In this document: piece after piece, positions 41,651-56,231 of the stretch
How the letters are laid out: the number at the start of each line of letters is the position of its first letter
Numbering within the stretch: the stretch's first letter is position 1
Origin: the human T2T-CHM13v2.0 reference genome, Homo sapiens
DNA: 64,000 nucleotides
Assembly: GCF_009914755.1 (NCBI RefSeq)
Contig: NC_060931.1
Reading direction: 5' to 3' (one strand)
Program-made: the position numbers and the translations under genes
Notes under the pieces: model-generated
Told to the model about the DNA's origin: nothing
Seen by the model: only the letters and a program-made list of their open reading frames with translations
Databases searched by the model: none

Positions 41651-44030
41651 TAGCAGGTATAAAGGAAAAAGCTACAGAGAATGTCTAGAAATATGGTGCT
41701 ATGTCCTTAACACCAGGAGGTAAGATTGTTATGGCTCACAGCCCTTCCCAATGCCTCCAAATTAGGAAAACTAGTCATGGGAGATTATATTAAAGGTGTT
41801 GCTTCTTCTTGCCCATATATTCTGATGGCCTCAAAAGAGACAGCATTTAAATGAGAGAGGGAAATGGGTCATGGTAACCAGGAAGTAAAGTTGGCTTTAA
41901 CACCATGCTCTGAAATGAAATCTGGGTGACATTGCTGGCACATGGAACCAAACAGACCCAGAAGCCTATCAAGTTTCTAAGGTATTGATATTTCAAAAGC
42001 AACCAGAAGCATGGCCTGAAAATGTCCTCAGACTCTCAGACCTATACCTGTAGGAAATGGATACTAAAATTACATGGTCTTTTCAAGACCCACTTCAGAG
42101 GTGGCCTTAAAGCATAACAGACTAGGAAGAATTTCCAAAGGGCAAAATTTGAAATCATAAAGAACATGGGGAAGTACACCATGGTCAGGACAGGGGACCA
42201 TCTCACTTCCTCTCTGGTGGAATAATAATCTCATTGCTATGCAATGTGAAAAGAAAAGAAACAACTTTTCAGTGACTATTAAGTGTATTCCCTTCTTCCT
42301 TTCTTTTCCTAAGACTGCTTATTATAGTTACTCTGATCACACTCTAGATTGTAATCTAGATGTGTTGGTGGATAATAATTTTGTTTTCTAGCCTTCCTCA
42401 TGCAGCCCTAGTGGACCTAACGTGGAGGTCAGAACATCACCTGGAGATACTGTACTTTGAAGTGGGTGCAGAAATTGGATGGGGGTTGGGGTTTTATCCC
42501 TTGGTGAGGGATGAGGGAGTCAATGTGTGAGAGAAGGGTGCAGATGGCTATTTGGTGGCCAAATGGCAGGCACAGATTGCTAATTGCTCACTAAAATTTA
42601 TTTTCTTTTTCCTTGAACATGTCTCTCCAGTCATTTGACATTACCCATTTCTTTTTTGCAATTAGTTGGGTATGGCCAGGTGGCTAGATTTTACCATTAG
42701 AAGGGAATTTGAAGTGCTGAGTACCATTGCTGGTCCTGGGCCTTAAGACATTGGGTACTTCTTTACATTCCCTCTAGTCTTTCTTCTTCCACTTTGACAG
42801 AACACAGACACAGTAGTGACCTAGATTCAACCATGCAGATAACCGCAGTCACCTAGGAATGGTTAGCAATATGAAAGAGCCACTCACTGCTCAAGATTCA
42901 CTCTCTATGCAGCCCCCTCAATGCTCCGTCCCTGGAGGCATTATGAACTCCACCAATAGCTCCCTTGCCTTCTGGCTTCTAGTTCAAAGGGTGGAATAAG
43001 TTAAGTCAGGATATCTATTCCCTCCATGCCCTCTGTGCTGAGCTGTCACAGGTTGGCTTCATCCTTCTACCAATGGCCACAGCATCTACTGGGAGAGTCT
43101 CCACTTTGTCTACCCTCTTCTTGTGCCAGTATCTGCTTCCACTCCTTATTCCTTCAAACCTAGAGATGGTAAGAGCTCCTGGCCTTCCCCTCACCCCACC
43201 TCTTCTATCCCATTGCTAGCACTGGAGTATTGTATTGTGTCTTGTTAATTTCCCTTAGTTTTCCCATCCTTACATCAATAGTCCCCTTAAAGAACTTCCC
43301 TCAATAGCCGTTCTGAGTGTGCCTTCTCTTTCCTGAAGGATTTGATGAGTGGGGTCTCTGAATGACCCCCTCAAGAGAAACTCCCCTACTAATAACTCTC
43401 ACAAGAACTGTTAGATGAGAGAGAAATAAACATCCATGATTTTTAAGCTACTATATTTCTGTTCTATGTGTTATAGTAATTTCGTCTTACCCTAATTAAT
43501 AGAGTATGATATATTTTTTCTAGAAGTTTGTCCATTTCATTAAATTTTCAAATTTGTTGGCATAAAATGATTCATTGACTCCTCTTTCCCTCTCTGTCTA
43601 TAGCATCTACATGTTTTAGTTTTCATTTCTAAAATTGGATATTTGAGCCATTATTTTTCTTCATTGTCTCATCACAGGGGTATTAGTTTTTATCAATCTT
43701 TTTAAAGAATGAACTTTTAAGGTTTGTTGAATCACTCCATTATATGTTCATTTTCTATTTCATTAATTGTACTGGTTATCGTAGCAAATTACTTTGGAAC
43801 TTAGCAGCTAAAAATAATCAGAAATGTTTATCATAACACATTCTTTCTGGGAGCAAGGTGGAAATGGTAGCGTTATTGTATGATCTGACCTTGACAATCA
43901 CACATCATCATTTCTAGAGTATCCTATTGGTTAAACAGGTCAGCCCTATTTGATGTTGTAGGGGGATATGCAAGGGCATGAATACCAGGAAGTGAGGATG
44001 TTGGGGTTCATGTTGGGATTCCGGTATTGG

Positions 44031-44745
44031 GGTTAGAGTAGGTAGTTAGGCAGACATGTGCAGGGAAGGAGAGCCTCCCCCTCCCACTGCCCACCACCAG
44101 GAATGTCAGGTGACCATGAGGTGATGGTCAGGTGGTTATTAAACTGTCTCACTAAAATAATAATTGGATGCAGCTGGCACCAGAGAAAGCCAGTCTCCCA
44201 ATAGATAGAAACTACCTGAAGCTGGTGATCAGCAGCTTCCTGATAAGATCTCAGGATCTTGGCTTGGGTGAGTGGGTCCAAGCATGCGCACTAAGAGGTA
44301 AAATGGCAGAGTTTAACTGGTATATAACCTGCCACTCGATTGGTAAGGGAAAAACACCTCAAGTGAGCATGTGAACAACTTCAGTAAACACACTGCACAT
44401 GCGGCCCCTCCCAAGTGCTGGCAGGCCACTGTGCATGTGGACAGCCTACCCCAAGGGAAGAATCAGGGGAGAAGAAATGCAAACCCCAGAATCATACCAA
44501 TGTATTAAAACCCCAAGTCAAAGGTCACATGAGGCATTTGGATCTCTTAAGTCACCCACTTGACCCTCTTCCAAGTGTACTTTACTTCCTTTCATTCCTG
44601 CTCTAAAACTTAAATAAACTCTCACTCCTGCTAAAAAACTTGCCTCAGTCTCTCACTCTGCCTTATACAAGTAAGATGAATTCTTTCCTTTGAGGAGGCA
44701 AGAATTGAGCTGTTGTAGAGCTGTACAGATTTGCCAGTGCAAAAA
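44031..44745 (+). repeat. 5' LTR (MER50-like)
   Basis: Begins (G)GTTAGAGTAGGTAGTTAGGCAGACATG and aligns by eye end to end with 54142-54844. AATAAA at 44613-44618. Terminal TG and CA are both mutated. Confidence 0.9.
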
Positions 44746-44768: not shown

Positions 44769-45965
44769 ATATTCTCTACTGGTAAGACATCTCTATGCCT
44801 TGCCTTCTTAGGCTGGAGGCATCCAACCCCCATACCCATACATGGTTTCCTTCTCCCCTTTCATTCTCCTGCTTATTAACTAACCCCCAAAATGGTTCCT
44901 CTCAGTCACAGTAGCTCTGGTCCCCATAGCTGATCTCTCAGCTGGCCCTGATGGTGGCTCACAGGGGTGAATAAAACCTTGGAGACTGCACCAAGTAGAC
45001 CTGAGACAATAACAGCTCTCCTGGATAGGAGGCTCATGAGAGGGGTAGGGCTAAAGCCTAAGACTGTGCAATGTCTGGGGTTTCCTCTCTTTTTCCTACT
45101 AAAATTGGCTTTTTTCCTAAAACCAACACCACCTATTCTGTTTTCTCTCTGTGAATTCTGAAATGGTCTTGCGTACCCACCAGGGGGCAAGTCTGCCTTT
45201 TCCCCGCTTTCACTTTGCATGCCACACGACTTCCTACTCTGCCTTAAACACACACTCCCAGTTTGTTATTTATATGCCTGAAGCTCTTGCTGTTTGCATA
45301 GCAGCAAAGAAATGGGCTTCCTTGTGGATGTCTGTTGGCTCATTTCTAGGACAGACACTTACCAGAACCCTGACTCTGCCAGCTCCTTATGACTTACCAT
45401 ATGCATTTCGTTTATGCTATGCTCCAGGGCCAAGTTTTTTGGTGTCTTTTGATGCTGTTTATCCACTGCATAGGATCTCACTCTGTGGCTTTTTAAGGAC
45501 CCCACCTACTACCACTGCCCCCCCACCTTTTTTTTTTTTTTTTTTTGAGTAAGCAATCCTTAGGGAGGAAGGAAAATTCTTCCTTTGCCATTTGCAAACC
45601 CTTATTCTTCCAAGCCCCAAGTCCTCTGGAGATTCCTCCTTTATGTTAAGAAGGCAAAAAATGCTGCCCTTTTGAATCCAAGGGCTGCTGGTTTTGCAAG
45701 CACATGAAGGCTTTCCGTGGGAATTCTTCTTGCTTCTTCCCATTTCCTCCTGTAGCAGAGGGATTATCTTGCCTGTTGAAGCATTTGTTCTCCATGTTAC
45801 CCCGGGAGGATAAGGAACCCCAAATACAAAATTTTCCCCATTCTTCTGATCACTTCCAGATTCTTCTCAATAGGTATAAGGACCTTCAAGGCCATATTTG
45901 AAGGGAGGAAAGTCCAACCCCTTGCAGCCGTTGGCTGAGAACCAGTCTTCCCGTCTACTTAAAGC

Positions 45966-46251
45966 ACATCATTCTCAGCAAACTAACACAGGAACAGAAA
46001 ATCAAACACTGCATATTCTCACTCATAAGTGGGAGCTGAACAATGAGAACACATGGACACAGGGCGGGGAACATCACACACCGGGGCCTGTCAGGGGGTG
46101 GAGACTAGGGGAGGGATAGCATTAGGAGAAATACCTAATGTAGATGATGGGTTGATGGGTGCACCAAACCACCATGGCACATGTATACCTATGTAACAAA
46201 CCTGAACATTCTGTACATGTACCCCAGAACTTAAAGTATAATTTTAAAAAA
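45966..46251 (+). mobile_element. 5'-truncated L1PA 3' end inserted in the proviral leader
   Basis: Diagnostic L1PA 3'UTR: CTCACTCATAAGTGGGAGCTGAACAATGAGAAC...GGGAGGGATAGCATTAGGAGAAATACCTAATG...AGAACTTAAAGTATAA, then a short A tail. Confidence 0.9.
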
Positions 46252-46806
46252 CCCAACAACTTCTTTGAAAGCCTGAAGAATAATTTCAATGTTTTTACAT
46301 TTAATTTGCCTTTTTCATTAAAGTTTATTCAAATTTTATGCCCCCCAAAATAGGAATATCAGAAAAGAAATAATCATTTTGTTGCTAGAATGCTCCAAGT
46401 GAGGTCACCATAAGGTCATAGAGACAGATATGAGCCAGCCCAAGGCTTCAGGCACAACAGACAAAAGTACTCATAGGACAGAGATGAAGGCTGGTCCCAA
46501 GCTATAGGCACAGATTACCATTAGAATAGGGATGAAGGAAAGCAAGGTTAGGGGTTCCCAATAAGACCAGTTCATTCTGGACCCCAAGGATGAAGAAGGG
46601 GCCCCCTGTTTACTCCAGTATCTCCTTTGTTCTCAAGTGGGTAATCATGATGAGATGGGACCAAGGTTAGGGGTACTTGGTGAGACTGGTTTATTTTGGA
46701 ACTGTAAGGACGAATTGGGGGATGCAATGTTTAGGAAAGGATGATAGGGGAATAAGAGGGAATGCATTCTTTTTTTCTTTTTTTCTCCTCTGTTCTCTCT
46801 TCACAG

Positions 46807-48305
46807 ATGGGTAATTGCCTCTCCATATGACAGGACACACCCCTAGATGCATCCTCAAGAACTGGGAAAAGTTTGACCCCCAAACTCTAAAAAAGAAAAG
46901 GCTAACATTTTTCTGTAATATAGCCTGGGTTGAATCCAAGCTCAGGGACCAGGAATCTTGGCCAGAAAATGAGATCATAAATTTTAATATGATCTATTGA
47001 CTGGATTTGTTTTGCTGGCAGCAGGGAAATTGGGCAAAAATCTCCTATGTACAGGCCTTCATAGTCCTAAGAAACAACCCTGACCTTTGTCAGGCTTGTA
47101 AAATGGATCCAGCAATGATAGCAGCCACAGTCAGGCAGCCCCCTCTGGTTGGTTTGGGAGACCATTATTGTGTTTATCCAGGGCTCAAGCCCCAGAGAAA
47201 CCAAGGGCAGAGCTTAGCTCAAACTCCCCTTCTACCCTATTATATCCAAGTCTCCCAGCCCTGGCTCATTTCCTTCCCTAACCAGGGCCATCCTCTGGAC
47301 ACCACCCCCTTAAGTTATGCCGCTTCAAGAGGTTAGCAGCCCCAGTAGAGCCACTAGGGTCCAAACTCCATTCACTATGCAATACCTGAGCCAAATTAAA
47401 ATGGAACTAGGTAAGTTTATGGAAGACCCTGACAAATACATGAAAGGGTTCCACAAGGTAGGCTTAACATTTAAACTCACCTGGAGGGACCTCTCAGTCA
47501 TACTAGGGCAAACTCTGTCTAAGGGAGAACGTGACTCCATTAAGGAAGTGGCCCAATAATTTGCAAATGCAATGCATATGACTGACCCTGGTGCCTACTC
47601 TGGGGGTGGGGGCGGGTAGGGGGCACAACAGTTTCTCAGGTGGACCTCTTTTGGGATTACAATACCTAGTGGGGCATGTGGACAAGGAACCACATATTCC
47701 TCTATCTGGTAGAAGGAATGAAAGCTAGCAGAACAAAGCCTGTGAACTACAATAAATTGGCCTTAATAGATCAAGGCCTTCTTGAAACCTCCTCTGCTTT
47801 CCTAGGGAGGCTACAAGAGGCCCTAATGAGATATACTAACCTAGACCCAGAGACACCAGAAGGGCAACTGGTCCTAAAGGACCATTTCCTAACTCAGGCA
47901 GCCCCAGATGATTTGGAAGAAACTCCAGAAACTAGCACTGGGTCCCAACACCCCTATGCCTGACACCCTCAAAATAGCTTCCTCAGTCTTTTACAACCAG
48001 GACCAGGAGGAAGAGGAAAGTGTTCAGGAAAAGGAGAAGTGAAAGGAAAAGAGGGAGCTCCAACTATTGGCTGCTCTACGGGTCCATTAGCCCCCTCCAG
48101 GTTGCCCTCAGACAACCCTCCCAGATAACTGACATTGGTGTGAGAAGTCAGGCCACTGGAAGGCAAACAGCCCCAGTGGAGCAGATGGGAAAAAGCCCCG
48201 CATGGCTTGCCCCTCTGCCACAAGCTCAGCCACTGGATCTGAGACTTCTCTGAGGGCCAAAGGGCCCCTGGGACAGAATCCCAACCCCTGATGACCTTGA
48301 GCTGA
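46807..48305 (+). pseudogene. gag: gag pseudogene
   Basis: ATG-GGT (MG myristoylation start). MA-like CILKNWEKFDPQTLKKKRL, CA-like LGKFMEDPDKY and FLGRLQEALMRYT, two degenerate Cys-His knuckle remnants at ~48130-48240. Several stops and frameshifts. Confidence 0.88.
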
Positions 48306-51300
48306 AGGGGCCCTATGGTCTGGCCAGCTCCTGGATTGAACATCACTATTGAGGGGATGAAGCTAAGGGCTGCTTTGGACACGGCAGGTATGACTGTAAG
48401 GTTTCTTTTGGACAAAGGAGCTGCCTGCTCAGTGCTTACCTCTTTTTCTGGGCAATTATCCTCAAATCCTGCCAGGCAATGGGGGTAAATGGGGTGCCCA
48501 TAATATAGAGGTTTGCTCCTTCTTGGTGCTGCCTGTGGGGATAAATGGTATTTTCTCATTCATTTTTAGTGATGCCAGAATGTCCTATGCCTCTTTTGGG
48601 TAGAGACATTTTGTTTAGACTAGGAGTTCAGTTAACCTTTCCTCCAGGGCCAACACCCCCTTTTCCAAATGCAATCTTATTCCTCAAGGAAACCACACAC
48701 AAGGATGAACTGCCCACAGACCTTCCAATTAATCCAGAGGTCTGGGCCCCAGGAATACCAGGAAAGGCTGTAATGGCCATGCCTATAGCAATTCAGCTCA
48801 AGGATCCTTCTAGTTATCCTTGCAGAGGGCAGTTTCCTCTTCAGTTGGAGGCCAAAGAGGGACTTCAGCCCCTGATTTAAAAATTTCTAACACATGGATT
48901 AATATCCTGTAACTCACCCTATAACACCCCTATCTTAACTGTTAAAAAGACTAACGGAGAATACAGGTTAGTCCAGAATCTGTGAGTCATAAATGAGGCA
49001 GTAGTCCGAATACACCCAATGGTCCCCAACCTTTATGTAATTCTAGAAGATTTCCAGATGCTCAGTGGTTTTCGGTCTTAGACTTCAAAAATTTCTTCTG
49101 TATCCCCCTAGACCCATCCTCCCAATTTATATTTGTATTGGAGTTGGAGAATGAAAAAGGAAGAAGTTAACAGCTCACCTGGACAGTGCTTCCACAAGGT
49201 TTCAGAGATAGTCCCCATTTGTTTGGGCAAGCCTTGGCTAGATATTTGCAGGACCTAAGTCTTTATATGGGAGGGCATCTCCTACAGTACATGGATGACC
49301 TGTTAATCTGCTCCCCAACAAGAGAGTTAGGAATCCAACATCTAAATTTCCTTGCAGACAGAAGGTACAAAGTGTCCAAGGCCAAGACACAGCTACTAAG
49401 ACAAGCAATCCAATACCTGGGGATAATCATGAGCCTCAAAGAACACAAGCTTTCTGCAGAATAGATACAGGCAATCCTTAGAATACTACACCAACCACCC
49501 AAAAGCAATTTTGAGCTTTTCTGGGGATCACAAGATACTGCAGACTTTGGATACTGGAATGTGGTGGAATTATTAAATCCTTATATCAGGCTTTAAAAGA
49601 AGGGACTAATAGGGACACAATCTCTGGGAAAAGAATCAGGAGCAAGCCTTTAGGTAGTTAAAAACTGCCCTCTCACAAGCCCCAGCCCTTGAGCTACCCA
49701 TACTAACCAAACCATTTCAGTTTTTCATCACTGAAAAGGCAAGGTATAGCACTAGGAGTTCTAACTGAAACCTTTGGGCCAGTCAAACATGCTGTAGGTT
49801 ATTTTTCAAAGAACCTAGACCCAGCAGCACAATGGTGGCCACATTGCCTCAAGGTAGTGGGTACAGCAGCCCTTATTCTCGAGGAGGACTTCAATATCAC
49901 AATGGGACAATCAATCTGGCTCCTAATGTCCCACCAAATAGACCCTTTATTGAATTTAAAAGGACCATAATGGCTCACTGACAACACATTGATAAAGTAC
50001 CAAGTCTTGTTGTTGGAAAACCCACAGGTAACAGTTGAGCAGTGTTCCACCATTAACCCAGCCCTCTTACTGCCACTACCAGGAGATGATAACTCAACAT
50101 ATTCATGCTGTGAGATTCTTAACAAAATTTATGCCAGCTGGGAAGACTTAAAGGATCAGCCCATAGATAATCCAGACAAAATATGGTTTTCAGATGGCAG
50201 TAGCTTCGTCAGGGATGGAACTAGATATGCAGGGTATGCTACAGAGTCCCATCACCAAGTTGTAGAGACTAAAGCTCTGTCCCCAGGGACCTCAGTGCAA
50301 CTAGCCGAATTCATCACACTAACCAGAGCCCTAAAACTAGGGGAAAGAAAAAGAATAACCATCTATACAGATTCCAAATATGCCTTCTTGGTGCTTCATG
50401 CCCACATGGCTATCTGGAAGGAAAGAAGGTACCTAACAGCTCAGGATGCTCCTATTAAGTATGGGTCTCAAGTCTTAGAGCTACTGGAGGCTGCTCATTT
50501 GCCCCAGGAAGTGGCAGTAGAGCATTGTGAAGGACACCACAGGGGCTTCTATTAAACTACATGGGGAAACAGGTTAGCTGACAAAAATGCTGAAGAGGCA
50601 GCCATGTCAAATGATACCTTCATGGGAGACTTGTTCCTCTCTCTCCCCAGTGAACTGCCCTTTCTCCAATACACTAAGGAAGAAATAGATTGGTCCAGCC
50701 AACATGGGTATAAAGAAGAAACCAGTGGATGGTACAGATTGGAAGAATTTTTCCATCTACCTCCCAATGGAAAGCCTCCCAGGGAAAAGCTTTCCATTGG
50801 GAGGTAGATGGAGAAATTGGAGGAGAGATGAAGAAATTGGCAGGTAGATGGAGAAAAGTGTGGGGAATCTTGGTTGATGGCAGAATTGGTTGTGGGTGTA
50901 TGTTTGGTAAGTTTGTTGGTTAGGGTCTACAGTGAGAGTCACACTGCAAACCGTACTGGGAAGAGCCCCTATATCTATTCCATTTTTCTTCTCAGCCATA
51001 ATGCAAATAGGGGCTATTCCCATTAAAGTGATATTAGAAAAGATGGGTCCAAAAATGGAACCTCCCAATGGAAAGTCATTAAGAGTTTTTACAACTTCTT
51101 CCACCTTGCAAAGGACAGTCTAGGACAAATTTGTAAATAAGTGTTCAGTGGGAAGGGACTAAACAAAACCATTCAACAGGTTTGTCAAGCCTATACCCTA
51201 TGTACCATAAATAATTCCCAGAGAGGGAAGCCCCCTCCATTAATAAGTCCAATCCAGAGGAGAAGTACATACCCTGGGGAGGACTGGCAAATGGACTTCA

Positions 51301-52130
51301 CTCATCTCCCTGCAGGCTTCAGGTAAAAGTACCTCTTGGTCTGTGTAGATACCTTCACAAAATGGGTAGAAGCCTGCTCCACAAAGACTGAGAAGGCACA
51401 GGAGGTAGCTAAATTCCTCCTAAAGGAATGCATTTCCTGGTTTGAGCTACCCAGGTCATTGCAAAGTGACAATGGTCCATCCTTTATTTCCTAAGTAACT
51501 CAACAGGTTAGTAGGGCCGTTAGTAAGCATAAATGTACCTTCACTTTGCCTGGTGATCACAACCTTCAGGAAAAGTGGAAAGAACTAAAGAAACCCTCGA
51601 ACACATACTCAATAAACTCTGTCAGAAAACAGCACAGCCATGGGTGGACCTCTTACTCTTAGCCCCACTTTGGATCCATATTGCCCCTCAGACTCCCTTG
51701 CAATTAATCCCCTTTGAGGCCTTATATGGTAAGCCATTCCTATATTCAGACTTAATGCTAGATGAAAAAACTGCCAAAATCACCTACTGTGTCTCTTCTT
51801 TAGCAGGTTTCCAACAGGCTCTCCAGGAATTTTGGTTACAAAGAAAGCCAAAATCAGAAGGGGAAAAATACCAGCCTCTGTATCCTCCAGGCTCACTAGT
51901 TCTTATTAAAGCTTGGAGAGATGGAACTCTGAATTCCCAACTAACTCCAGTCCGAAGGGGCCTCTTCACCCTTAGAGCCATTAAAGTATCAGAGATTGTC
52001 AGTTGGATACATCACACCTGAGTGAAGCCATGGAAAGGCTCCAAAACACCAGATCTGGAAGCAATGCCCTCAGCTCCAGAACACACTTGAGAGGCACTGG
52101 AAAATCTGTGATTCCTCTTTAAGTGAAAAG
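48306..52130 (+). pseudogene. pol: pro-pol pseudogene (protease, RT, RNase H, integrase)
   Basis: FLLDKGA (DTG mutated), PLLGRDIL, LPQGFRDSP, YMDD, WFSDGSS, YTDSKYAF, GEDWQMDFTH, LQSDNGPSF. Many stops and frameshifts. End coordinate approximate. Confidence 0.92.
50775..51059 (-). other. Templated insertion in pol: fold-back, short repeats and inverted env fragment
   Basis: ACCTCCCAATGGAAAG duplicated at 50759-50774 and 51060-51075. 50859-51059 is the reverse complement of env 52628-52828 with 27 differences in 201 nt (hand count). Confidence 0.92.
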
Positions 52131-52310
52131 ATAAGTAATGCCCCTCAACATCCTTTCTCTTCAGAGTAAGATGATCTTAATATTAGAAATCTTACTTGCA
52201 ATTGCTCTGATTATTATCACTATTTTAACCCTAACTTGTACACCACTAGGCCTTCCAGTGGCAGCTTTCTTTGTGACCAGTTTCTCTCTTCACAGTCACC
52301 TTAGGTTGCT

Positions 52311-54106
52311 ATGGGCCTGCTCCAGTTGGTTCTCAATCTCACCCCTTTACTAGCAGGACACTACCATCCTGATTTCCCATTATTGGAAAAAGCTCAGTAA
52401 CTGCTCCAAAGCACAGGATCCCCTTACTCCACCAATTGCTGGTTATGTACCAGCTCTTCTGCTAAAACGGCAGGGAGAGCTTATTCAGCCTCACCAAGAG
52501 ATTGGACAAGTATAAAGGCAGAACTGCATATTTTCTATCAATGGGAGGCTAATGGGAGATGTTTGGGCCTGCAAATAGCCTTCTTGCAAAAGTAAAGCAA
52601 GATTTCCCTGATATCTGCAAAGAACCTCCCAATTTTGGATCCATCTTTTCTAATACCACTTTAATGGGACTAGCCCCTATTTGCATTACGGCCAATAAGA
52701 AAAATGGAATGGATGTTGGGGCTCTTTCCAGTACAGTTAGCAATGTTACTCTCACTGTAGATCCTAACCAACGAACTTGCCAAACGTACACCCACAACTA
52801 ATTCTACCATCACACAAGATTTCCCAAACCTTCAAATATTACCTTTCCTCTGGGAACTTTGCTGGATAAATCCACCCAGTTTTGCCAGGGACACCCAAGC
52901 TCCTGCAGTATTCAAAATTTCTGGTTCCGGCCTGCTGATACAACCAATGCCTGCAAATTGCCAATCTCATTTCTACAGAAGAATGGGTTCTATTGGACCA
53001 GACTCAAAATTCTCTTTTTTAGGAAAATAAAACCAAGGGAACTAAACAGAACCAAAGCCCATGCACATAAGTCTTAGCAGGCATGACTATAGCCACCAGC
53101 TACCTGGGTGTGTTGGCAGCCTTGGCATTTCTTGGAGCTGTCCTCACCCCCTTGTTTCATTTTTACATCTCTACTTATCTTAAAACCCAAGGAGCCTTCT
53201 ATATTTGTGGCCAGCCAGTTCACCAGTGCCTCCCCACTAACCGGACTGGAACTTGTACCATAGGCTATGTATCCCTAGACATCTTCATAGTCCCTGGCAA
53301 TCTCTCTCTTCCAGCACCAATCTACAGGCATTCCATCTTTTCCAGGATGAGGAGGGCTATCCAATTAATTCTCCTTCTCACAGGACTTGGTATTATAGCC
53401 AGTATGGGAACCAGAATTGCTAGAATCACAAAAGCCTCCTTGACCCATAGCCAGCCCTCAAGGGAAATAGCCAAGAACATTGATGCTACGGCTAAAACCT
53501 TAACAACTGTGCAAGAACAAATTGACTCTTTGGCAGCTATAGTCCTCCAAAATTATCAGGAGTTAGACAAGTTAACAGCAGCACAGAGAGAAACTTGTTT
53601 AGCCTTAGGTGAAAAATTTTGCTTATGGGTCAATCAATCAGGAAAAGTACAATATCAGACAACTCCTAAATTGAGCCTCCAGTTTACTGGAACAAGCCTC
53701 TCAGGGTTGGTTAGATTGGGAAGGAAGCTGAAAATGCTTCTCCTGAGTTATTCCCCTTTTAGGCCCACTTGTTAGTCTCCTACTTTTGCTCCGTTTTGGG
53801 CCATGTCTTCTAAATCTAGCAACCCGATTTGTCTCCTCACACCTTCAGGCCATCAAGCTTCAGATGATCCTCAGTGAGAGATACCATCGTCTCAATATTC
53901 AAGAGTCACACTTCTACAGAGGACCACTAGACTGCCCATCAGTGAGACATGAAAGAAGCGAAATCCTGCCCCTGTCTCCCTTGGACCTTGCTGGATACCA
54001 CTTTCACCAACCCACAAAGCCACCCTGCCCTGACAGCAAGACGCCAAGACCCACAGAACAATCATCACCGTCCTTCTGTCAGCAGGAAGCAGTTACAGAA
54101 GACTGA
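52311..54106 (+). pseudogene. env: env pseudogene, syncytin-2 (ERVFRD-1) paralogue
   Basis: MGLLQLVLNLTPLLAGHYHPDFPLLEKAQ*LLQSTGSPYSTNCWLC..., GMTIATSYLG, LKTQGAFYICGQ, furin site RMRR, ISD LQNYQELDKLTAAQ, FGPCLLN. Splice acceptor TTTCTCTCTTCACAG ends at 52295. Stops at 52398 and 52799 plus frameshifts. Confidence 0.92.
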
Positions 54107-54141: not shown

Positions 54142-54844
54142 TGTTAGAGTAGGTAGTTTGGCAGACATGAACAGGGCAAAAGAGGCACCCACCCCGCCGC
54201 TGCTTCCATGAATCTCAGGCAACCATCAGATGATCAGGTGATGGCCAGGTGATTGTTAAGCTGTCTCACTAAAATAGTAATTGGTTGCAGCTGATGCCAG
54301 GGACAGGCAGGCTCCCAACAGATAGAAAACACCTGAAACAAGATCAGCAGCTTCCCGATAAGGTCTCAGGAGTTGGGTGAGTGGGCCCGAGCATGCATAC
54401 TAAGAGGCAAAATGGTGGAGTTTAACTGGTATATGACCTTCCTCTAGGAATGCTCAACTGGTAAGGGAAAAATGCCTCAAGTGAGCACACACAAAACTTC
54501 AATAAACACATTGCATATGCAGCCCCTCCCAAGTGCTGGCAGGCCACTGCACATGTGGAAATCCCACCTTAAGGAAAAATCAAGGAAGGAGAGATGCAAA
54601 CCTCAGAACCAGGCCAATGTATAAAAACCCCAAGTGAAGGGTTGGATGAGGCACTTGGATCTCTTAAGTTGCCCGCTTGGCCCTCTTCCAAGTATACTTT
54701 CTTTCCTTTCACTCCTGCTCTCATTCCTGTTCAAAAACTTGCCTTGGTCTCTCACTCTACCTTATACCCCTTAGGTAAATTATTTCCTTTGAGGAGGCAA
54801 GAATCAAGTTGCTGCAGACCCATATGGATCCACCACTGCTAACA
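54142..54844 (+). repeat. 3' LTR (MER50-like)
   Basis: TGTTAG...CTAACA termini, preceded by purine-rich AAAGAATTGGGTCGGGAA. TATAAAA near 54620. Confidence 0.92.
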
Positions 54845-56231
54845 ATCCTAGAGCTATCTACTATGTTAGTTTTTGCTCTGATGTTTACTATTTCCCTTCT
54901 TGAACTTTCTTTGGTCTTACTTTGCTGTTTTCTTCTATCAACAAAAGGATGATATTACCTCTTTAATATCAGTTTTTCCTCTTTTCTATTGTACTCATTT
55001 AAGAGTATAAATTTTACTTAAATTTAATTTTAGCTGTTTCCTATAAGATTTTATCTGTTGGAAAATTTTTATTATTCAATTAAAATCACTTTCTTATTTC
55101 CATTTTACTTCTTTTTCTTTTTTGACTCGCAGATTATTTAGAAATGTTACATAATTTTTCAACATGCAAATTTTCTAGGTTTTTAAAAAATTGAGTCTAA
55201 GCTTGATTGCATTGTAGTCAGACAATATATACTATTATCAAGACTCGCTTGACAGCCAGGTATATAGTCAATTTTTGTAGATGCTCCTTGTGAGCTTGAA
55301 ATAATGTGTATCTGCAATTACTTGGCACAAGGTTCTATATAATCCTATTAGGTTAAGTTTGCAAATTGTGTGTTTTAGGTACTCTCTATTCTCACTAATC
55401 TTTTTAAAAAAATTTTGCTAGTTCTACCAATAAACAATGAATGCCAAGTTAAAATCAATCATGATGACAGTACGACTGTTTGTATTTTTCTTGTAGTAGT
55501 TCAGCAAATTTTTGCTGTGTATATTTTAAGGTTGTATTAGAAGGAACATGTACACTTAAAATCACTCTATCTTCTGGGTGGTCCCTTCTATCCATGGTAA
55601 TACTTTTACTTTTAAAGTCTATTTTGATTGAACAATATAGTTCTTCCCACCCTTGGCTCCTTTTAAAGTCTTTGTGTTTGATGCTCTGCAGTTTCACCAA
55701 GATATGGCTAGGTATGAATTTCTAAGTCTCAGCATGATTAAAATATTTTCTCTACCCAACTCTTTTCTTTTTTTCCTTTCCTTCTGGGGATCCAATTTGT
55801 CCTATGCTAGATCTTCTCACTTTTAGCCTCCATGTCTTTTTTAGAGTTTCCTCTCTCAGTTTTTCCGTGTTATACTGAATATAATCTCCCATGAACTATT
55901 TTTCATTTCATTAATTATCTCTTCAGATCTGCTACATTTCCTGTTAAATTCACCCATTAAAGGTTTTTGTTTCTGTCTCTCATTTTCTTTTCTTTTTTTT
56001 TTTTGCTCCCTAATGTCCTTGACACAACCCCACACTGTTTCCGAAAAACTGACCTCAAAAACTTAAGAATGAATTCAGGTCCCTTTCCCCCTTTCCAATA
56101 ATTAGCCACATGTATCACATAACCCATAACTTTATCTGAGCCTGAGCATGTTTTGGCCTGTCTTTATTTGCAACCTACATGACCTCACCAGTCATCTACC
56201 TTAAGAGGGTGTATTTAGAGGCTTTGTGTGG

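What the first reader, a model, noticed from the sequence alone, without database searches (positions are those of the whole stretch)
50746..51075. Junctions record a multi-step fold-back and template-switch event
Seen in order: pol ...TCCATCTACCTCCCAATGGAAAGC (50752-50775); a 13-nt loop that with adjacent bases forms a degenerate copy of the target (CCTCCCAGGGAAAAG); a perfect 24-bp inverted arm (50789-50812, 30 bp with one mismatch); two further stuttered copies of ~GGTAGATGGAGAAATTG (to ~50858); the inverted env; then pol resumes with the 16-mer ACCTCCCAATGGAAAG duplicated. GAACCTCCCAAT at the right junction (51058-51069) is identical to env 52622-52633, exactly at the donor boundary. There is no poly(A) or L1 endonuclease site. 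Inference: snap-back synthesis plus microhomology-driven switches, either by reverse transcriptase or by polymerase-theta/MMBIR-type repair.
Basis: partly seen in the sequence, partly recalled or inferred. Interest (0 to 1): 0.7.

Follow-up and report, generated by a model that had tools for sequence, protein, structure and literature searches.

The report
Ancient repair scar in dead retrovirus
Inside a dead retrovirus between the human PON1 and PON3 genes, a patch of about 290 extra bases is built from copies of neighbouring DNA, partly backwards, and is likely the scar of one ancient error-prone DNA repair, which is a known and ordinary kind of event.

Summary
The junctions are real. About 294 extra bases interrupt pol of a HERV-FRD (MER50) provirus; 12 of 12 paralogous pol sites lack them. 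The 204-nt inverted piece groups with this provirus's own env (4 exclusive shared sites, tree support 91/91). Two corrections: the 'target' 50752-50775 is itself rearranged (7 nt shorter than in all 12 paralogs), so the arm likely copied the nascent strand and the 16-mer is no true target-site duplication; and the 12-nt env match includes a later env mutation, leaving a 7-nt pol/env microhomology. About seven switches at 1-7-nt microhomologies explain the whole insert. It is old: 6.4% change per copy against 6.8-9.1% for the provirus (ratio 0.83, 95% 0.52-1.26), so neither an assembly artefact nor datable apart from integration. A chr3 paralog carries a 263-nt inverted self-copy with one mismatch, so host machinery likely makes such inserts in this family. 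Best reading: germ-line repair by iterative microhomology-primed synthesis (polymerase-theta/MMBIR type), 0.62; reverse transcriptase 0.22. A new case of a known kind; no function evident.

The parts
44032..44745 (+). 5' LTR of the provirus
   Evidence: 77% BLAST match to the 3' LTR over 44032-44719; 113 of 657 aligned bases differ; end approximate
47670..47963 (+). gag remnant (p30)
   Evidence: Pfam Gag_p30 E 1.4e-11
49171..50762 (+). pol remnant left of the event (RT, RNase H, start of the integrase region); colinear with paralogs up to 50762
   Evidence: Pfam RVT_1 and RNase_H; paralog matches end at query 463 = 50762
50763..50774 (+). first re-synthesised pol copy, reached after a 7-nt forward skip at a CCT repeat (inferred)
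   Evidence: all 12 paralogous sites have 7-8 more bases here
50775..50789 (+). second pol copy (the 'loop'), reached by a 15-nt back-slip at AAAG (inferred); 3 of 15 mismatches
   Evidence: the AAAG|CCT join is exact in 4 of 12 paralogs, AAAG in 7 of 12
50790..50815 (-). fold-back arm: reverse complement of the already shortened left sequence (complementarity runs 50789-50818)
50816..50835 (-). stutter copy 2 of the arm (20-nt back-slip at ATT, inferred); 5 of 20 mismatches gapless
   Evidence: (D4)
50836..50856 (-). stutter copy 3; 1 of 21 mismatch; last 2 bases shared with the env insert
50855..51058 (-). inverted 204-nt copy of env SU 52629-52832, 86.8% identical, gapless
51058..51067 (+). 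env-sense match (52622-52631) whose last 7 nt are shared with pol: return junction
51061..52021 (+). pol resumes (integrase region), colinear with paralogs
   Evidence: paralog matches start at query 762-764 = 51061-51063
52311..53917 (+). env pseudogene (LOC100533722), equivalent of the 538-aa syncytin-2 ORF
   Evidence: hub annotation
52622..52832 (+). donor segment in env with the pol-like 7-mer at its left edge (52625-52631)
54142..54845 (+). 3' LTR

Best explanation
The stretch is a 294-base insertion made wholly of copies of this provirus's own pol and env, and it was likely written in one germ-line DNA-repair event by a low-processivity host polymerase (polymerase-theta or MMBIR type) that likely let go and re-primed about seven times on 1-7-base microhomologies. 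Read left to right (order and direction inferred): skip of 7 nt at a CCT repeat; 12 nt; back-slip of 15 nt at AAAG; 15 nt, stopping at the same base as before; fold-back on the new strand (26-30 nt); two 20-nt back-slips at ATT; jump to env 1.6-1.8 kb away at 2 nt; 204 nt inverted; strand change in env at 1 nt; return to pol through a 7-nt repeat. A two-ended version fits as well: the left end primes on the right end twice and snaps back, the right end invades env through the 7-mer and turns round, and the two ends join at 2 nt. It happened early in the provirus's history and has decayed neutrally since; no function is implied.
For: Shown: empty site in 12 of 12 paralogs and the 7-nt difference; every inserted base maps to local pol or env; donor is the cis env (lowest distance 13.2% against 14.7-24.0% for 9 paralogs; 4 exclusive shared sites against at most 2; support 91/91); both env strands are used at the right junction. 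Comparative: in 57,425 bases of 12 paralogous elements there is one inverted self-copy (chr3, 263 nt, 1 mismatch, at the junction) and one 154-nt direct self-copy (chrY, 93.5%), both closer to their donors than the family's age allows for integration-time events. Literature passages: loop-out, snap-back and trans priming (PMC5728401); switching between cis and trans templating (PMC4912351); cycles of priming on one base with about 1 error in 30 (PMC5068794); a 376-bp insertion from three nearby loci (PMC5120786).
Against: The event is not distinguishable in age from integration (ratio 0.83, 95% 0.52-1.26; likelihood ratio about 2 for integration time), and 3 of the 4 exclusive shared sites are synonymous, as expected if few host-phase mutations preceded it (Fisher p 0.13 on the 5-site set, not significant). 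Polymerase-theta inserts in worms are mostly under 25 bp and snap-back is a minor class there, so the 204-nt tract is atypical. The chr3 and chrY events are simple two-junction inserts, not seven-switch ones, and the chr3 identity could reflect conversion or assembly error (not testable here). The enzyme cannot be named from sequence.
Confidence: 0.62

Rival explanations
1. Reverse transcriptase made it during the round of replication that produced this provirus: plus-strand synthesis would slip and fold back, copy env from the second packaged RNA or a downstream plus-strand piece, and return to the minus-strand DNA, leaving a looped heteroduplex that was fixed after integration.
For: All templates lie inside the viral genome; age overlaps integration; shared insert/env sites are mostly synonymous; RT switches 3-12 times per genome and makes deletions with insertions and duplications, and plus-strand synthesis can be discontinuous (PMC3187697 passages); 1.9% of HTLV-1c proviruses carried inversions (PMC13427564). 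The insert shares 2 exclusive sites with the chr14:26.44 Mb copy, which a second, slightly different packaged RNA could explain. The provirus lacks a clear 4-nt target duplication.
Against: A single minus-strand pass fails: it would need antisense pol upstream of the stop point, not yet made (inference). The plus-strand route needs three different templates and heteroduplex survival. The HTLV-1c paper itself favours post-integration origins. One of the 2 chr14-shared sites is an opposite-strand CpG decay pattern. Recent host-type events exist in paralogs. The two classic single-cycle papers were not held, so whether RT makes this pattern was not checked.
Confidence: 0.22
2. Several separate host events: an older 7-nt deletion in pol, then a tandem duplication or hairpin extension, and an independent inverted env insertion at the same fragile spot.
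For: Mismatches are uneven: arms 1 in 60 against loop plus stutter 2 with 8 in 35 (P 0.003, post hoc). A prior deletion would lengthen the pol/env match to 8 nt.
Against: The loop join recreates the AAAG|CCT join of the paralogs, which needs the longer template at that time. Private indels are rare in these flanks (5 in about 2.5 kb). Summed over all small copies 10 of 129 bases differ, as expected for the same age as the env insert.
Confidence: 0.1
3. The inverted env came from another FRD locus or transcript (for example syncytin-2 RNA) and only looks local.
For: Syncytin-2 env is nearly as close (14.7% against 13.2%); tree support 91/91 is below the strict threshold.
Against: 0 exclusive sites with syncytin-2 against 4 with the cis env; no closer copy among 12 genome matches; no poly(A); the junction reads the cis env's own bases at 52622-52624.
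Confidence: 0.05
4. Assembly artefact.
For: Palindromes are prone to fold-back chimeras (established knowledge).
Against: An artefact would copy its donor exactly; the insert differs at 27 of 204 sites, 16 of them where the insert keeps the paralogs' base and env has changed.
Confidence: 0.01

Closest known systems
Polymerase-theta-mediated end joining / synthesis-dependent MMEJ templated insertions (PMC5728401, PMC4912351, PMC5068794; passages read)
   Same: Flank-templated pieces in direct and reverse-complement orientation, 1-4-nt priming, repeated cycles, snap-back on the extended end, mismatches within inserts.
   Different: Includes a 204-nt tract from 1.6-1.8 kb away; no net loss of flank; natural, fixed and tens of millions of years old; enzyme dependence untested.
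FoSTeS/MMBIR iterative template switching (PMC5120786; passages read)
   Same: Hundreds of bases templated from nearby loci, several switches, microhomology at junctions.
   Different: No large copy-number change seen in the window; the whole event spans about 2 kb.
Short-range template switches in great-ape genomes (PMC7954356; abstract and outline seen)
   Same: Germ-line, fixed, reverse-complement copying of nearby DNA that looks like a mutation cluster.
   Different: That class is modelled as a short out-and-back switch; this has about seven switches and a kilobase-range jump.
Aberrant reverse-transcriptase template switching (PMC3187697, PMC13427564; passages read)
   Same: Templates confined to the viral genome; short microhomology; age near integration.
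   Different: Needs both strands of env and copying of the new strand; the review passages seen list deletions, insertions and duplications, with no hit for 'inverted'.
HERV-FRD / MER50 proviruses (ERVFRD-1, syncytin-2)
   Same: LTR-gag-pol-env-LTR order; env best match 85% to the syncytin-2 locus.
   Different: All genes broken; private insertion in pol.

Membership tests
Polymerase-theta / SD-MMEJ templated insertion | Insert templated by DNA flanking the break | tested here: met
   All pieces map to local pol or env
Polymerase-theta / SD-MMEJ templated insertion | Short microhomology at each switch | tested here: met
   3, 4, 1, 3, 3, 2, 1 and 7 nt by comparison with natural paralogs; the 1-2-nt cases are within chance
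Polymerase-theta / SD-MMEJ templated insertion | Snap-back and repeated cycles | tested here: met
   Arm copies the shortened junction; two direct re-primings and two stutters
Polymerase-theta / SD-MMEJ templated insertion | Tracts short (mostly under 25 bp) and break-proximal | tested here: not met
   204-nt tract from 1.6-1.8 kb away
Polymerase-theta / SD-MMEJ templated insertion | Dependence on POLQ | not testable with these tools
   Fossil event
FoSTeS/MMBIR complex templated insertion | Iterative switches with templated insertion of hundreds of bases from nearby loci | tested here: met
FoSTeS/MMBIR complex templated insertion | Arises at a stalled or collapsed replication fork | not testable with these tools
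   Two extensions stop at the same base, which fits a block but does not show one
Reverse-transcriptase rearrangement | Event as old as the integration | tested here: inconclusive
   Ratio 0.83, 95% 0.52-1.26; LTR 17.2% against 13.2%, Fisher p 0.19
Reverse-transcriptase rearrangement | Templates available in one minus-strand pass | tested here: not met
   Sense copies of pol upstream of the stop point are needed (anatomy; inference); a plus-strand route remains
Reverse-transcriptase rearrangement | No orthologue with an empty site | not testable with these tools
   No relatives held for this genome
L1-mediated insertion (target-primed, twin priming) | Poly(A) tail and true target-site duplication | tested here: not met
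   No poly(A); the repeat is a rearranged copy, not an intact target
HERV-FRD / MER50 provirus | LTR-gag-pol-env-LTR with env closest to syncytin-2 | tested here: met
   MER50 = ERVFRD in PMC3113919 Table 2
HERV-FRD / MER50 provirus | Match to the curated repeat-library entry and tRNA primer site | not tested

The most novel reading that the evidence does not exclude
A fossil of one reverse-transcription round more than 30 million years old in which RT slipped, folded back on its own plus strand, copied 204 nt of env backwards from a second, slightly different packaged genome, and returned, with the product fixed in the primate germ line: a seven-switch, orientation-reversing RT error readable base by base.
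Probability: 0.15. Interest if true: 0.5.

Novelty: new member of a known kind. Interest (0 to 1): 0.27.

Why it matters
It is a clear teaching case: paralogous proviruses supply the state before the event, so each switch can be read, including evidence that the hairpin arm was copied from the newly made strand. It suggests that dead ERV families can serve as dated, many-copy test beds for germ-line templated insertions (3 of 13 copies examined carry one over 100 nt). It has no evident function, lies in an intergenic pseudogene, and the mechanism class is well described. It would matter more if primate orthologues tied it to integration, or if the chr3 insert proved polymorphic in people.

Tried and rejected
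LTR clock alone: the two LTRs are not resolved as sisters among 19 LTRs (0 of 16 branches strongly supported), no 4-nt target duplication is visible and many differences are CpG-type, so it was used only at conserved columns. Unusual conservation of the arms as a sign of a younger event or of conversion: 1 mismatch in 60 against 4.1 expected, P 0.09, not significant. Recombination between two viral genomes across the insert: left and right flanks have the same nearest copies (chr14:26.44 Mb, chr9) and no skew in exclusive sites. Coding role of the 120-codon antisense frame through the insert (50757-51119): no start, splice or expression evidence sought; 4 of 10 insert-only changes are synonymous, within neutral expectation. 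Full-length paralogs were not examined; only about 4-7 kb of each. Literature on this locus: LOC100533722 0 papers; HERV-FRD/MER50/7q21 38 papers, 20 listed, none on this by title or abstract start; 6 papers, none relevant. Variant catalogues and repeat annotations could not be searched. Two single-cycle retroviral papers (PMC54464, PMC189744) were not held.

Full report
Setting. The finding lies in pol of a plus-strand provirus between PON1 and PON3: LTRs at about 44032-44745 and 54142-54845, gag p30, RT, RNase H and env remnants by Pfam (4 of 6 frames hit). Its env is closest, outside this locus, to a chr6 copy (85%) whose 538-aa frame is syncytin-2. PMC3113919 Table 2 equates MER50 with ERVFRD (passages), and PMC1236922 dates the syncytin-2 member to more than 40 million years (passages).

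Observation. The hairpin folds far better than shuffles.

Empty site. A genome search with 50300-51600 found paralogs whose matches stop at 50762 and restart at 51061-51063. In 12 of 12 paralogous sites the flanks are contiguous (25-54 nt between anchors that lie 330 nt apart here; 35-39 nt in 8 of them); the net gain is 294 nt against the commonest spacing. The insert is private to this copy among those examined.

First correction. All 12 paralogous sites have 7-8 more bases where the window's left copy begins; AAAG is there in 7 of 12 and the exact AAAG|CCT join in 4 of 12. The window lacks these bases at 50762/50763 but shows that same join at 50771-50777. The simplest reading (inference) is a forward skip at the CCT repeat followed by a back-slip at AAAG on a template that still had the longer form. 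The inverted arm copies the shortened form, so its template was likely the new strand: a true snap-back. A pre-existing deletion is possible but needs a chance re-creation of the join, and private indels are few in these flanks (5 in about 2.5 kb). It follows that the 16-mer is not a target-site duplication: 15 pol bases are repeated, and the sixteenth differs in origin on the two sides (10 of 12 paralogs have G there, none A).

Second correction. In the 12-nt env match, env 52632 is a later change (9 of 9 paralogs and the insert have T). What remains is 10 nt readable from env, of which 7 are shared with pol. The 7-mer is exact in 4 of 9 paralogous env genes, and the two A's before it occur in 3 of 9. 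The 7-mer is common in this provirus (12 copies on both strands), yet the donor boundary falls inside it, which I put below 1% by chance (estimate from those counts). The repeat is in direct orientation, so the inverted piece needs a further strand change within env.

Donor. The insert is nearest to the cis env (13.2% against 14.7-24.0% for 9 paralogs), shares 4 exclusive sites with it (next best 2, syncytin-2 0) and pairs with it in the tree at 91/91, below the strict threshold. Of 27 differences, 16 are env-side, 10 insert-side, 1 unclear by paralog majority. An assembly artefact would not show this.

Age. At columns conserved among paralogs, change since the event is 22 in 344 copy-sites (6.4%). 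The same measure is 6.8% for the LTRs, 7.3% for env outside the donor, 7.8% and 9.1% for the pol flanks; the coding figures include changes from the viral phase. Pooled ratio 0.83 (95% 0.52-1.26); likelihood ratio for integration time against a uniformly later time is 2.0 (0.6-3.4). The small copies agree (10 of 129), though mismatches cluster in the loop and stutter 2 (8 of 35, P 0.003 post hoc), which fits errors at synthesis but does not prove them. Three of the 4 exclusive shared sites are synonymous (not significant). The event is thus early, and RT is not excluded.

Which polymerase. A single minus-strand RT pass cannot supply antisense pol upstream of its stop point (inference from the steps in PMC3187697); a plus-strand route needs the minus DNA, the new strand and a sense env template in turn. 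In chromosomal DNA all are at hand. A scan of 57,425 bases of 12 paralogous elements found four internal repeats in four elements, two of them clear self-copies of pol (the other two, a 402-nt direct repeat at 73% and a 69-nt tandem, were not followed): at chr3 46.02 Mb a 263-nt inverted copy inserted about 520 nt from its donor, with one mismatch at the junction (best other match 85%), and at chrY 20.17 Mb a 154-nt direct copy at 93.5%. Unless converted or mis-assembled, the chr3 event is recent, so host machinery likely makes this class in this family. The pieces match loop-out, snap-back and trans priming as described for SD-MMEJ and polymerase theta (passages) and the long nearby templated inserts of FoSTeS/MMBIR (passages). 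Against: worm inserts are mostly under 25 bp, and 1.9% of HTLV-1c proviruses have inversions, though that paper leans to post-integration origins.

Verdict. Real, old, cis-templated complex insertion; host repair 0.62, RT 0.22, separate events 0.10, other donor 0.05, artefact 0.01. These weights are my judgement from the calls above. I found no paper on the locus, but variant and repeat catalogues, supplements and most subscription papers were not searchable. The kind is known; the case is unusually legible. Interest 0.27.

Noticed in passing
L054:1056-1318 (G000:C3:46020255-46020517), donor L054:277-539: A paralogous FRD element carries a 263-nt inverted copy of its own RT region, identical to the donor except one junction base, with short microhomology at both ends: likely a very recent, possibly human-specific or polymorphic insertion (or conversion or assembly error).
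   Followed up: partly
L024:898-1051 and 1791-1944 (G000:C24 about 20.168 Mb): A 154-nt same-orientation copy of integrase-region DNA sits in env of the chrY element, 93.5% identical to its donor 890 nt away.
   Followed up: partly
window 44027-44033 and 54845-54849: No 4-nt target-site duplication flanks the provirus and the 5' LTR starts GG, while several related LTRs show one; the 3' LTR shares an 18-nt gap with the chr3 element's 3' LTR (L039) but not with its own 5' LTR. Flank damage or an old recombination between elements is possible.
   Followed up: partly
window 45960-46251: A stretch with the look of an L1 3' end (recalled motif, not tested) lies between the 5' LTR and gag; NCBI masks 45964-46260.
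   Followed up: no
window 50757-51119 (- strand): The insert and its junctions form a 120-codon stop-free antisense frame holding the env piece, whereas the donor env has a stop at 52799; no sign of use was sought.
   Followed up: no
window 52632: The env change at this site happens to extend the pol/env match from 7 to 9 nt; coincidence, or mismatch correction during a strand invasion.
   Followed up: no
L016:2227-2247 (G000:C3 about 46.0217 Mb): The chr3 element lacks about 2.7 kb from integrase to the end of env (window-equivalent 51323 to 54007).
   Followed up: no
L005 / L017 (G000:C14:36849928-36852906) and L027/L033 (G000:C23:74688505-74688634): A 402-nt direct repeat at 73% and a 69-nt tandem duplication inside two other paralogous elements.
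   Followed up: no
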